64,000 nucleotides of DNA from Promethearchaeota archaeon. Lineage in GTDB: Archaea > Asgardarchaeota > Lokiarchaeia > Sigyniarchaeales > SOKP01. Positions 1 through 55,593 of the stretch are shown here, one piece after another (the first letter of the stretch is position 1; every line of letters begins with the position of its first letter). The stretch is from assembly GCA_016839585.1 (NCBI GenBank), contig JAEOTZ010000016.1, forward strand, positions 1-64,000. Reading direction: 5' to 3'. The notes below the pieces were generated by a model, which saw only the letters and a list, made by a program, of their open reading frames with translations, was not told the DNA's origin and searched no databases. Position numbers and translations under genes: made by a program.

Positions 1-145
1 AGTTGAAATATCAACTTTACAAGCACCTCTCGATTTATTCCTTTTAAAGTTAATCCTTCATTATGAAAAAATTTAATTACTAGTCTTTATTATTTCATTT
101 ACTTATAACCATATAGGAAGGTATTTTTTAATAAAATAACCGTAC

Positions 146-153
146 TTATAAAA
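146..153 (+). promoter_or_regulatory. candidate TATA box for the 5S precursor
   Basis: TTATAAAA about 20-25 nt upstream of the precursor's closing stem (170-178/363-371). Confidence 0.45.
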
Positions 154-204
154 TGGTTAGTATACTTTAATACCACATAATCAGCTGCTAGCTAAGCGCC
201 GGAA

Positions 205-355
205 GTTAAACTCGTTTACGTTGTCCAATAGTACTGCTGTTCTTATCAGTGGGAAATGGCAAATTGTGAGTTCGCTCACGGTCATGATACTCGAGGAAAA
301 TACCCGGTCCCATCCGAAAAACCAACTGTTTTCGAGGTGGTTCGGGAACCCGGAA
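205..355 (+). rRNA. rrf: 5S rRNA, circularly permuted and intron-containing (3' half 205-270, UUCG linker 271-274, 5' half 275-318, intron 319-348, micro-exon 349-355)
   Basis: Order 275-318 + 349-355 + 205-270 gives a 117-nt 5S with helix I (263-270/275-282), conserved ACCCGGTCCCATCCGAACCCGGAAGTTAA, loop E AGTA/GAA, helix IV CTGCTG/CAGTGG and helix V; two BHB-like motifs sit at the junctions. Confidence 0.9.
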
Positions 356-482
356 ACGTTCCATGTGGTATGCGGTATACCAATGTATGTATTAAAAGGA
401 TAGATTTCGTTAATTTGTTGATTTCCTCAAAAATGAATCTATCATAGATCATAGAAAATATAATACATAGTACATAGTATAT

Positions 483-509
483 GAAAGAGATAAGATATCT
501 CTTTCTTTT
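483..509 (+). terminator. hairpin plus T-run, candidate terminator of the 5S precursor
   Basis: GAAAGAGATA-aga-TATCTCTTTC perfect 10-bp stem followed by TTTT. Confidence 0.45.
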
Positions 510-576
510 ACTTATCTAAAAATAATTTTTTTAAATCATTTATTATATCAATATATATTGTAGAATTATTCTTTAT

Positions 577-1134
577 TTGATAATATTCATGCCAAAAAAA
601 TACATAGTTATTTTTAAGACAATTGGGAGACACTGGTTTTGGATTCTTGTATTAATAATTATCATTTTATCTATATATAGACAATATATAGCTGCTATAG
701 TATTAAGTGTGATTTTTCTTGTTTTTTTTCTTTTATCGTATATTCCAGCTTTATTTTTCAAAAATAGATTAAAAAGACTCATGAAAAAGTATTATAGAAT
801 TGAAGATACTATAGTTGCTAAAAAGTTAAAGAAAAAAATTAATAAAATCAGAGAGGAGATGTTTGATATGTCGCAAAAACAGGAGAAGAAAAATTGGCTA
901 ATCACTTTTCTAAATAAGCAGTATATATATTATCATGAACAGACAATAACTAAATTTATGGAACTTTACAATAAAGGTTTTAGTGAAAAAGAAATCTTTG
1001 AAGGATTACAAGATTTTGAACTAAAAACGAGGGTAGAAGTTAAAAGTATTACAGAGAGTCTGATAAAACTTAACAAACTTAGTGAAAGAGATGTTTCAGT
1101 GAAAGAACATAAAAAAAAACAGAGATTTGCTTAA
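577..1134 (+). CDS. hypothetical membrane protein (2 N-terminal TM helices)
   Basis: 185 aa ORF, hydrophobic N-terminus, basic soluble C-domain. Confidence 0.75.
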   Translation: MIIFMPKKYIVIFKTIGRHWFWILVLIIIILSIYRQYIAAIVLSVIFLVFFLLSYIPALFFKNRLKRLMKKYYRIEDTIVAKKLKKKINKIREEMFDMSQKQEKKNWLITFLNKQYIYYHEQTITKFMELYNKGFSEKEIFEGLQDFELKTRVEVKSITESLIKLNKLSERDVSVKEHKKKQRFA

Positions 1135-55490: not shown

Positions 55491-55593
55491 GGGAGGGTAG
55501 TCTAGCCTGGTATGATTCTTGGTTTGGGACCAAGTAAACGAGCCAATATGACCGTTTTGGTAAGGGTCGGGGGTTCAACTCCCCCCTCTCCCA
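55491..55593 (+). tRNA. trnP: tRNA-Pro(UGG) with a 29-nt intron at position 43/44 (55535-55563)
   Basis: acceptor GGGAGGG/CTCTCCC, anticodon arm CTTGG-TTTGGGA-CCAAG, T arm GGGGG-TTCAACT-CCCCC; splicing leaves GGGTC variable loop; CCA not encoded. Confidence 0.92.

What the first reader, a model, noticed from the sequence alone, without database searches (positions are those of the whole stretch)
195..360. Circularly permuted 5S rRNA gene whose halves are rejoined by a bulge-helix-bulge junction
Seen: the 3' half of 5S (205-270: GTTAAACTCG...AGTACTGCTG...CAGTGGGAAA...ATTGTGAG) lies upstream of the 5' half (275-318: CTCACGGTCAT...ACCCGGTCCCATCCGAA). Leader and trailer form a BHB-like motif: central helix CCGG(199-202)/CCGG(350-353), bulges AA^G(203-205) and AA^A(354-356), flanking helix AGCG(195-198)/CGTT(357-360). 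Cutting after the second bulge nucleotide, the archaeal splicing endonuclease rule, and ligating gives ...CCCGGAA|GTTAA..., the conserved helix III sequence with its AA bulge. Established: BHB-dependent permuted tRNAs and a permuted SRP RNA are known in Thermoproteota, and permuted 5S in some algal mitochondria. I know of no permuted, BHB-restored 5S gene in archaea. Inference: this is a functional 5S gene that standard annotation would miss or truncate.
Basis: partly seen in the sequence, partly recalled or inferred. Interest (0 to 1): 0.97.

Follow-up and report, generated by a model that had tools for sequence, protein, structure and literature searches.

The report
Permuted, spliced, ring-forming 5S rRNA gene
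This Lokiarchaeia-type Asgard archaeon encodes its only 5S ribosomal RNA back part first, between tRNA-intron-type cut signals and with a 30-base intron. Public environmental RNA contains exactly the cut, spliced and re-joined 121-base form, which explains why gene finders report no 5S here.

Summary
Window 205-270 is the 3' part of a 5S rRNA. A UUCG loop (271-274) caps helix I. 275-318 is the 5' part, 319-348 a 30-nt intron and 349-355 a 7-nt micro-exon. [quoted passage not shown]

Rfam finds no colinear 5S in this 99%-complete genome. The same layout occurs once per genome in 118 of 131 sampled genomes of the family, and in about half of the Asgard families sampled. It never occurs together with a colinear 5S. 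The 5S helices and the BHB helices covary, and break points differ between lineages while restoring the same sequence.

Contigs from two metatranscriptome runs of two studies carry both the 318>349 splice and the 355>205 back-join. They run through the UUCG loop and wrap around a 121-nt circle.

The genome encodes two EndA paralogues and RtcB. Cutting and joining is strongly supported. That the ring is the final ribosomal form is inferred (about 0.6).

I found no published report. This scan has already noted the same layout on other Asgard DNA (135 notes, at least 99 genomes).

The parts
126..153 (+). AT-rich TATA-like boxes (126-135 and 146-153): putative promoter of a stand-alone 5S transcription unit
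   Evidence: Sequence. A conserved upstream block with TTATAAAA/TTATATAA is visible in relatives. The transcription start was not determined; this part is inference.
170..178 (+). 5' strand of the outer processing stem; pairs with 363-371 (9 bp)
   Evidence: Forms in the unconstrained MFE fold. All 80 related loci analysed have a perfect flanking duplex of 7-18 bp, median 13. Compensatory differences are visible.
183..193 (+). Small leader hairpin (AGCU-GCU-AGCU)
   Evidence: Constrained fold. Hairpins at the same place in relatives: AGCA..UGCU and GUAGC..GCUAC.
195..198 (+). BHB outer helix, 5' strand; pairs with 357-360
   Evidence: In 37 distinct class A loci the first three outer pairs are paired in 37/37, with GC, CG, AU, UA and GU types.
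199..202 (+). BHB central 4-bp helix, 5' strand (CCGG); pairs with 350-353
   Evidence: The leader strand tracks the 5S helix III strand across lineages: CCGG/CCGG, CUGG/CCAG, CUGG/UCAG.
203..205 (+). 5' bulge AA|G; inferred cut between 204 and 205; G205 is the first retained base
   Evidence: In relatives the discarded leader bases vary (AA, AC, AU) while the retained G is invariant. RNA contigs read ...CCCGGAA followed by GUU.
205..270 (+). 3' part of 5S: end of helix III, helix II 3' strand, helix V, loop E, helix IV, loop D, helix I 3' strand
   Evidence: HMM positions 47-115 of the sister-family 5S profile; covariation; R1 and R2 model matches.
271..274 (+). UUCG tetraloop capping helix I, where a normal 5S has its free ends
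   Evidence: 104 of 111 scored loci have a 4-nt cap, 62 of them UUCG, on a perfect stem of 7 bp in 97 of 111 loci, which covaries. RNA contigs run through it without a break.
275..318 (+). 5' part of 5S: helix I 5' strand, loop A, helix II 5' strand, loop B, helix III 5' strand, first part of loop C
   Evidence: HMM positions 3-44; covariation.
319..348 (+). 30-nt BHB intron in loop C. Central helix 313-316/343-346, bulges 317-319 (AA|A) and 347-349 (AA|C), inner helix 320-324/338-342
   Evidence: Absent from most relatives at the same site. The same BHB with a covarying inner helix occurs in other genera. Both RNA contigs lack it and join 318 to 349.
349..355 (+). 7-nt micro-exon CCCGGAA: end of loop C, helix III 3' strand and the AA bulge
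354..356 (+). 3' bulge AA|A; inferred cut between 355 and 356
   Evidence: The retained AA is invariant in class A, while the discarded third base varies A/U/G/C.
357..360 (+). BHB outer helix, 3' strand
363..371 (+). 3' strand of the outer processing stem

Best explanation
This is the genome's only 5S rRNA gene, encoded in circularly permuted order as a stand-alone transcription unit.

The primary transcript folds so that leader and trailer form a 9-bp stem and a bulge-helix-bulge motif. The splicing endonuclease, here probably an alpha-beta heterotetramer, cuts after the second base of each bulge (204|205 and 355|356). RtcB joins base 355 to base 205. This rebuilds helix III with its AA bulge. 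A second BHB in loop C directs removal of the 30-nt intron 319-348.

The product is a 121-nt covalently closed 5S RNA whose helix I is capped by UUCG.

- Shown: gene order, conservation, covariation, absence of any other 5S, presence of the enzymes, and both junctions in RNA.
- Inferred: that EndA and RtcB are the enzymes, the exact cut positions, and that the ring itself (about 0.6) rather than a re-opened form sits in the ribosome.
For: Gene identity
- No Rfam 5S in the window or in the 99.2%-complete genome. There is exactly one permuted copy.
- The joined order aligns to HMM positions 4-114 of the sister-family 5S profile. The genomic order gives positions 47-115 followed by 3-44.
- Covariation of helices I, II, IV and V in permuted order: 14 of 28 pairs and 20 of 28 pairs have changes on both sides. 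No shuffle out of 500 reached the observed values for paired cells, pairs changed on both sides or the covariation score.

Distribution
- 118 of 131 genomes of the family have one copy. Every other family of the class except f2 has one.
- Phylum-wide, permuted and colinear 5S are mutually exclusive by family.

BHB motif
- Paired cells 94.6% (class A) and 86% (class B), against 7-44% with partners slid. Compensatory changes occur in the outer and central helices.
- Retained bulge bases are invariant and discarded ones vary, as expected for a cut after the second bulge base.
- Different break points (helix III AA|G, loop C, loop B, GA|A, AAG|U) all obey the same rule and restore the same 5S sequence.

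RNA
- Metatranscriptome contigs of 137 and 147 nt from two studies map 199-318 without a break.
- They continue with ...CCCAUCCGAAC before 199 and CCCGGAAGUU after 318.
- They show no cover on leader, intron or trailer, and they wrap around a 121-nt circle.

Enzymes
- Two EndA paralogues of 200-201 aa, 31% identical. The alignment shows no His in the second opposite the His of the first.
- One RtcB.
Against: - The RNA evidence is assembled contigs, not reads. It cannot give abundance, molecule ends or the share of ring against linear forms.
- CCGGAA occurs in both leader and trailer. The product therefore does not fix the cut sites in this species; these rest on comparison with relatives.
- The BHB conformer is not the predicted MFE: -38.6 against -60.2 kcal/mol for 168-374. 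In the MFE the leader CCGG pairs with 304-308 instead.
- With 3-nt bulges there is no inner helix on the 5S side, so the motif is relaxed rather than textbook.
Confidence: 0.9

Rival explanations
1. The ring is only an intermediate. After ligation it is re-opened in or beside the UUCG loop and trimmed, so that the ribosome carries an ordinary linear 5S with free helix I ends, as happens with permuted tRNA genes.
For: Permuted tRNAs mature this way, and circular pre-16S/23S are re-linearised in model archaea (PMC3978253, PMC10351888; background in PMC12918454). Contigs cannot exclude a mixture of a rare ring and abundant linear molecules.
Against: - The joint is only 4 nt in 104 of 111 loci and is mostly of the stable UNCG type. 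It sits on a covarying stem, perfect over 7 bp in 97 of 111 loci. That looks like a structural cap, not a spacer with a processing site.
- RNA contigs of two studies run through the loop, and no RNA contig ends there.
- The permuted SRP RNA of Thermoproteus stays circular and functional (PMC4731332).
Confidence: 0.3
2. The RNA is cut at the BHB but not ligated. The ribosome uses a permuted linear 5S (or a nicked one) whose ends lie in helix III.
For: Organellar permuted 5S rRNAs function as permuted linear molecules (PMC4267664).
Against: RNA contigs of two studies contain the joined sequence CCCGGAA-GUU across 355>205. RtcB is encoded. Different break points in relatives restore one and the same sequence.
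Confidence: 0.03
3. Assembly artefact or decaying pseudogene near a contig end, with the real 5S gene unassembled.
For: The feature lies 195 nt from the start of its contig. rRNA genes are often missing from MAGs.
Against: - A source-run DNA contig extends 294 nt beyond the window start, and a second sample covers 295-700 with no difference.
- The same layout occurs in closed genomes and in over 100 other genomes, with covariation.
- Colinear 5S is never found in those families. The only two exceptions are bacterial-type 5S next to 23S ends, that is contaminant contigs.
Confidence: 0.01
4. 319-348 is an expansion segment kept in the mature 5S, not an intron.
For: Expansion segments exist in some archaeal and bacterial 5S rRNAs (PMC7812874). 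The insert folds into a hairpin.
Against: Both RNA contigs lack it and join 318 to 349. It has a 4-bp central helix and two 3-nt bulges whose rule-based cuts restore the consensus exactly. It is present in only some relatives.
Confidence: 0.03

Closest known systems
Permuted, circular SRP RNA of Thermoproteus tenax (Plagens et al. 2015, eLife, PMC4731332; abstract read)
   Same: The gene is encoded in permuted order. [quoted passage not shown] The product is a circular, functional RNA. The canonical gene appears to be missing from the genome.
   Different: A different RNA: 5S rRNA, a ribosome component. It is spread over about half of the Asgard families sampled rather than a few Thermoproteus species. 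Break points vary between lineages. Optional BHB introns occur inside the permuted gene. No biochemical test has been done.
Circularly permuted tRNA genes (Cyanidioschyzon merolae; Thermofilum pendens: PMC3218864, PMC3978253, listed)
   Same: The 3' half lies upstream of the 5' half. The BHB is formed by leader and trailer, and maturation goes through a circular intermediate.
   Different: In tRNAs the circle is re-opened by RNase P and tRNase Z at a spacer between the native ends. Here the native ends are bridged by a 4-nt tetraloop with no evident processing site.
Circular pre-16S/23S rRNA, circular or permuted 23S rRNA in archaea (PMC12918454, PMC7758197, bioRxiv 10.64898/2026.03.23.713588)
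   Same: A BHB in a processing stem, EndA cleavage, and ligation to a circle. In some lineages the circle or a permuted form is kept in the ribosome.
   Different: Those genes are colinear in the DNA and the permutation arises at RNA level. These papers state that 5S is not processed this way, or was seen only as rare, unvalidated circles without a BHB (PMC3326292).
Permuted mitochondrial 5S rRNAs (Valach et al. 2014, PMC4267664)
   Same: A 5S rRNA gene whose native ends are joined and whose new ends lie elsewhere. Standard covariance models miss it.
   Different: These are organellar. There is no BHB and no ligation step, and the molecules are thought to act as permuted linear RNAs.
Archaeal BHB introns in 16S/23S rRNA and non-canonical tRNA introns
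   Same: The 30-nt insert 319-348 has a 4-bp central helix, two 3-nt bulges and an inner hairpin. It is patchily present among relatives.
   Different: It lies in a 5S rRNA, for which I found no reported intron. The inserts are uniformly about 30 nt. They occur at four or more sites of the same small RNA across relatives.

Membership tests
5S rRNA (Rfam RF00001) | Match to the covariance model at or above 38 bits | tested here: not met
   In genomic order there is no match, even at E up to 10. This is expected for a permuted gene. The joined order could not be given to cmscan.
5S rRNA (Rfam RF00001) | Full-length sequence homology to known 5S, including the loop C and loop E motifs, at a length of about 117-121 nt | tested here: met
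   The joined order aligns to HMM positions 4-114 of the sister-family colinear 5S profile (29.9 bits for this locus, 30-50 bits for relatives). Ring lengths are 119-123 nt in 54 loci.
5S rRNA (Rfam RF00001) | Helices I, II, IV and V supported by covariation | tested here: met
   92.5% and 87.9% of cells paired, 14 and 20 of 28 pairs with changes on both sides, slid controls 32-48%.
5S rRNA (Rfam RF00001) | It is the genome's 5S: no other copy, and one copy per genome | tested here: met
   permuted and colinear forms are mutually exclusive by family.
5S rRNA (Rfam RF00001) | Presence in the large ribosomal subunit | not testable with these tools
   This needs ribosome preparation or cryo-EM.
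BHB-dependent permuted RNA genes (tRNA, SRP RNA type) | The 3' part is encoded upstream of the 5' part on one strand in one transcription unit | tested here: met
BHB-dependent permuted RNA genes (tRNA, SRP RNA type) | Leader and trailer form helix, 3-nt bulge, 4-bp helix, 3-nt bulge, helix | tested here: met
   Outer helix 195-198/357-360, central helix 199-202/350-353, bulges 203-205 and 354-356, conserved with covariation. Caveats: no inner helix next to a 3-nt 5' bulge, and the motif is not the MFE conformer.
BHB-dependent permuted RNA genes (tRNA, SRP RNA type) | Rule-based cuts plus ligation give the functional sequence, and that junction exists in RNA | tested here: met
   RNA contigs X19 and X20.
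BHB-dependent permuted RNA genes (tRNA, SRP RNA type) | Splicing endonuclease and RtcB ligase are encoded | tested here: met
BHB-dependent permuted RNA genes (tRNA, SRP RNA type) | Cleavage of the precursor by the cognate endonuclease | not testable with these tools
   This needs an in vitro assay.
BHB-dependent permuted RNA genes (tRNA, SRP RNA type) | Covalently circular product | tested here: inconclusive
   The contigs wrap around a 121-nt circle and contain both the ligation junction and the capped helix I. Contigs could, however, merge different molecules.
Archaeal BHB intron (for 319-348) | A 4-bp central helix flanked by two 3-nt bulges; the cuts restore the uninterrupted sequence; absent from the RNA | tested here: met
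   Central helix 313-316/343-346, bulges AA|A and AA|C, inner helix 320-324/338-342. The same motif occurs in other genera. It is spliced out in the RNA contigs. No outer helix lies directly next to the motif.

The most novel reading that the evidence does not exclude
The mature 5S rRNA in the ribosomes of this organism, and of roughly half of the Asgard lineages, is a covalently closed ring. The cultured Lokiarchaeia family is an exception. The ring is made by the tRNA-splicing machinery from a permuted gene. Its break point and its 30-nt mini-introns have moved repeatedly along the beta arm during evolution.
Probability: 0.55. Interest if true: 0.93.

Novelty: new variant of a known kind. 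Interest (0 to 1): 0.88.

Why it matters
- **Ribosome biology.** 5S rRNA is a universal ribosome component, and its gene is regarded as easy to find. Here a whole radiation of the closest archaeal relatives of eukaryotes encodes it in scrambled order. They depend on the tRNA-splicing enzymes to rebuild it, probably as a ring. If the ring is the mature form, this would be, to my knowledge, the first ribosome with a circular 5S.
- **Literature.** The current statement that 16S and 23S, but not 5S, pass through BHB circularisation (PMC12918454) would need revising.
- **Genome quality.** From my own knowledge of the MIMAG standard (Bowers et al. 2017), a 'high-quality' genome needs a detected 5S gene. 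Many Asgard genomes would fail that criterion only because the models cannot see this layout. A permuted covariance model such as R2 fixes this.
- **Evolution.** The shifting break points and the 30-nt introns offer a natural experiment on how BHB sites arise and move.

Tried and rejected
- **Rfam partial matches.** cmscan at E up to 10 on 100-460 gave no partial 5S hit, so Rfam could not demonstrate the two halves. I used an HMM of sister-family 5S instead.
- **Thermodynamic folding.** It does not recover the BHB. In the MFE the leader CCGG pairs with 304-308.
- **Free BHB search with a shuffled-leader control.** Uninformative, because too many cut combinations reach 7-8 pairs by chance. I replaced it with anchored pair counts and slid controls. 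Loci for that count were selected for a fully paired central helix, so only the outer-helix figures and the covariation types are independent.
- **Sub-threshold Rfam 'colinear' hits of about 30 bits in class B relatives**. They force the leader hairpin into helices I and II with many mismatches. I rejected them in favour of the permuted reading.
- **Two above-threshold colinear 5S hits in family f1 genomes.** Both are bacterial-type 5S next to 23S ends, so contaminant contigs.
- **Transcription start.** Two TATA-like boxes are present and their spacing differs between loci, so I left it open.
- **First regular expressions for locus extraction.** They missed most loci and were rewritten.

Full report
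**1. What is in the sequence**

The window starts at base 1 of contig C88 of a 3.45-Mb genome that is 99.2% complete. Reading 160-380 gives this order:
- 170-178: one strand of a 9-bp stem whose partner is 363-371
- 183-193: a small hairpin
- 195-198: AGCG
- 199-202: CCGG
- 203-205: AAG
- 205-270: a stretch with the 5S signatures GUUAAAC, AGUACUG and GGGAAA, ending in UUGUGAG
- 271-274: UUCG
- 275-318: CUCACGGUCAUG... through ACCCGGUCCCAUCCGAA
- 319-348: 30 extra bases
- 349-355: CCCGGAA
- 356: A
- 357-360: CGUU

Rfam reports no 5S in the window at gathering score. It reports none at E up to 10 around the locus, and none in the whole genome.

**2. Is it a 5S?**

I took nine colinear 5S genes from the sister family f2 and built an HMM from them. 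The joined order is 275-318 + 349-355 + 205-270.
- The joined order aligns to HMM positions 4-114.
- The genomic order gives positions 47-115 first and 3-44 second.

All 23 loci reconstructed from the 24 same-genus genomes behave the same way. In the permuted order, helices I, II, IV and V are well supported:

| Alignment | Cells paired | Pairs changed on both sides | Slid controls |
|---|---|---|---|
| Within the genus | 92.5% | 14 of 28 | 32-48% |
| 19 sequences from three families | 87.9% | 20 of 28 | 37-44% |

The loop-closing pair of helix I itself covaries (GC 8, AU 5, CG 4), so the capped hairpin is a selected RNA feature.

**3. Distribution**

I built a covariance model of the permuted core (R1). 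It finds exactly one copy in 118 of 131 genomes of family f1, across 12 genera. Public record titles name these as Promethearchaeota/Promethearchaeia MAGs, that is Lokiarchaeia in the older naming. They include Loki_b31, Loki_b32 and two closed chromosomes.

A broader model (R2) finds full-length permuted genes in:
- families f3, f4, f5, f6 and f7 of the class;
- many other Asgard families, among them a 1.42-Mb closed genome.

On the same 151-genome sample, Rfam's colinear 5S is found only in families where R2 finds nothing. Examples are f12 (25/26), f17 (17/19) and f2. No family has both. Family f2 seems, from closed genomes of 4.4 and 6.0 Mb, to include the cultured Lokiarchaeia. That identification is my inference from genome sizes. 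Family f2 has ordinary genes with a TATA box about 25 nt upstream, a T-run after the gene and no flanking stem. Two colinear hits inside f1 genomes are bacterial-type 5S next to 23S ends, so contaminants.

**4. The BHB motif**

The motif has the handedness of a true BHB: on each strand the order is helix, 4-nt central strand, 3-nt bulge, helix. Relatives show several break points:

| Lineage | Break point | Leader | Trailer |
|---|---|---|---|
| Class A (this window) | between the AA bulge of helix III and the next G | as in the window | as in the window |
| Class B (same genus) | loop C | GCG-CUGG-AA\|C | CCGG-UC\|A-CGC |
| f3 | loop B | CCGA-AA\|A | UCGG-AA\|A |
| f5 | AAG\|U | – | – |
| f8 | GA\|A | – | – |

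In every case, cutting after the second bulge base on both strands and joining gives the same canonical 5S sequence and length.

Anchored counts on 56 distinct BHB regions show:
- The outer helix is paired at its first three positions in 37/37 class A and 19/19 class B regions, with many compensatory types.
- The central helix follows changes of the 5S helix III strand: CCGG/CCGG, CUGG/CCAG, CUGG/UCAG.
- Sliding the partner drops pairing from 95% or 86% to 7-44%.
- In class A, the two retained trailer bulge bases are always AA and the retained leader base is always G. The discarded leader bases vary (AA, AC, AU), and so does the discarded third trailer base. This is the pattern expected from those cut sites.

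All 80 loci analysed also carry a perfect outer duplex of 7-18 bp.

**5. The 30-nt insert**

Stretch 319-348 is missing from most relatives at exactly this point. It has its own BHB:
- central helix 313-316 (UCCG) with 343-346 (CGGG)
- bulges AA|A and AA|C
- inner helix 320-324 with 338-342

The same motif, with different and covarying inner helices, occurs in other genera. Of 80 loci, 54 give a ring of 119-123 nt and 26 give 149-153 nt. The longer ones carry one insert of about 30 nt, at four or more different sites, and each obeys the same rule.

**6. RNA**

Twenty public runs hold part of the stretch, two of them metatranscriptomes from different studies. I laid those two RNA runs and two DNA runs on window 1-700.
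- **DNA.** The DNA contigs reproduce the genomic order. One covers 1-318 and extends 294 nt upstream of the window start. Another, from a second sample, covers 295-700 without a difference.
- **RNA.** The RNA contigs are 137 and 147 nt long, each with one base different from the window. Both map 199-318 in one piece, through the UUCG loop. Before 199 they carry (CCC)GGUCCCAUCCGAAC instead of the leader. After 318, the one that continues long enough to be reported carries CCCGGAAGUU.
- **What this means.** This is the 318>349 splice and the 355>205 back-join. The contigs run once around a 121-nt circle (114 + 7 nt) and 16-26 nt further. Leader, intron and trailer have no RNA cover.

These are assemblies, so they show that the junctions exist in RNA. 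They do not show abundances or molecule ends.

**7. Enzymes**

The genome encodes two splicing-endonuclease paralogues of 201 and 200 aa. Each has the N-terminal and catalytic domains, and they are 31% identical. In the alignment the second has no His opposite the His of the first. This fits an alpha-beta heterotetramer, the type known for broad substrate range. That assignment is my inference. One RtcB ligase is present.

**8. Ring or re-opened?**

Three observations favour the ring as the final form:
- The bridge between the native ends is 4 nt in 104 of 111 loci and mostly UNCG-like (UUCG 62). It sits on a covarying stem that is perfect over 7 bp in 97 of the 111 loci. That looks like a cap, not a spacer.
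- The RNA contigs pass through it.
- The permuted SRP RNA of Thermoproteus stays circular (PMC4731332).

None of this proves that the ring is the ribosomal form. I put that at about 0.6, and re-opening at about 0.3.

**9. Weak points**

- The BHB conformer is 21.6 kcal/mol above the predicted MFE for 168-374. In the MFE the leader CCGG pairs with the helix III 5' strand.
- The 5' bulge may be 2 nt if G205 pairs with C349.
- The 6-nt repeat CCGGAA hides the exact cut sites in this species.
- The promoter and transcription start are only guessed.

**10. Literature and earlier notes**

Searches of the held library found a permuted 5S only in organelles (PMC4267664). A 2026 paper states that 16S and 23S, but not 5S, are circularised (PMC12918454). 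Rare, unvalidated 5S circles without a BHB were reported in Sulfolobus, Halobacterium and Pyrococcus (PMC3326292; bioRxiv 10.64898/2026.03.23.713588). Subscription journals are not covered.

This scan has already noted the same layout on other Asgard DNA: 135 notes in at least 99 genomes. I read those notes after reaching my own reading, and they agree with it.

Noticed in passing
window 55491-55593 (+): A tRNA gene (49 bits) with an insert of about 30 nt in the variable-loop region (after model position 45), so a non-canonical intron. This fits an endonuclease with broad substrate range.
   Followed up: no
L009-L019, L021-L024 (same genus, other species): A second break-point class within the same genus. 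The 5S is opened in loop C (GGUC|CCAUCC) instead of helix III, with its own BHB (GCG-CUGG-AA|C and CCGG-UC|A-CGC), and restores the identical mature sequence.
   Followed up: yes
L040, minus strand, about 1380-1600 (family f3): A third break point, in loop B. Leader CCGA-AA|A and trailer UCGG-AA|A join to CGGAA+ACACCCGA, the Rfam consensus. Rfam sees only model positions 20-59 of this gene.
   Followed up: partly
26 of 80 related loci, e.g. L006, L021-L024, L098, L099, L145, L167: Mini-introns of about 30 nt at four or more sites of the 5S (two in loop C, one in loop D, one in helix IV). Each has a 4-bp central helix, and its rule-based cuts restore the consensus. Covarying example: UUGC/GCGA against UUAC/GUGA.
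   Followed up: partly
L188 (G076:C68) and L190 (G094:C263): Colinear 5S hits above the Rfam threshold in two family f1 genomes are bacterial-type 5S (GAAGUGAAA-type motif) directly after a 23S end. They are probably contaminant contigs in these MAGs.
   Followed up: partly
L097 / L122 (G115:C109, 4504-4606 and 5234-5382): One genome carries two permuted-5S matches about 730 nt apart on one contig. The second scores much lower (41 bits) and may be a decaying duplicate.
   Followed up: no
Asgard family f25 (0/7), also f14, f16, f28, f29: Neither a colinear Rfam 5S nor an R2 permuted 5S was found in the sampled genomes of these families. Their 5S may have yet another layout.
   Followed up: no
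L117 (contig of 2802 bases; the same length as the contig of L052, G082:C484): A contig that, by its length, seems to be G082:C484 of the window's own GTDB genus is titled 'Candidatus Odinarchaeota' in its public record. Other hits carry Thor-, Hod- or Hermodarchaeota labels. Submitter labels do not match the genome-based grouping.
   Followed up: no
window 198-202 with 304-308: In the predicted MFE the leader GCCGG pairs with the helix III 5' strand. It thereby mimics helix III with its AA bulge before ligation. This could be a competing or chaperoning precursor fold.
   Followed up: no
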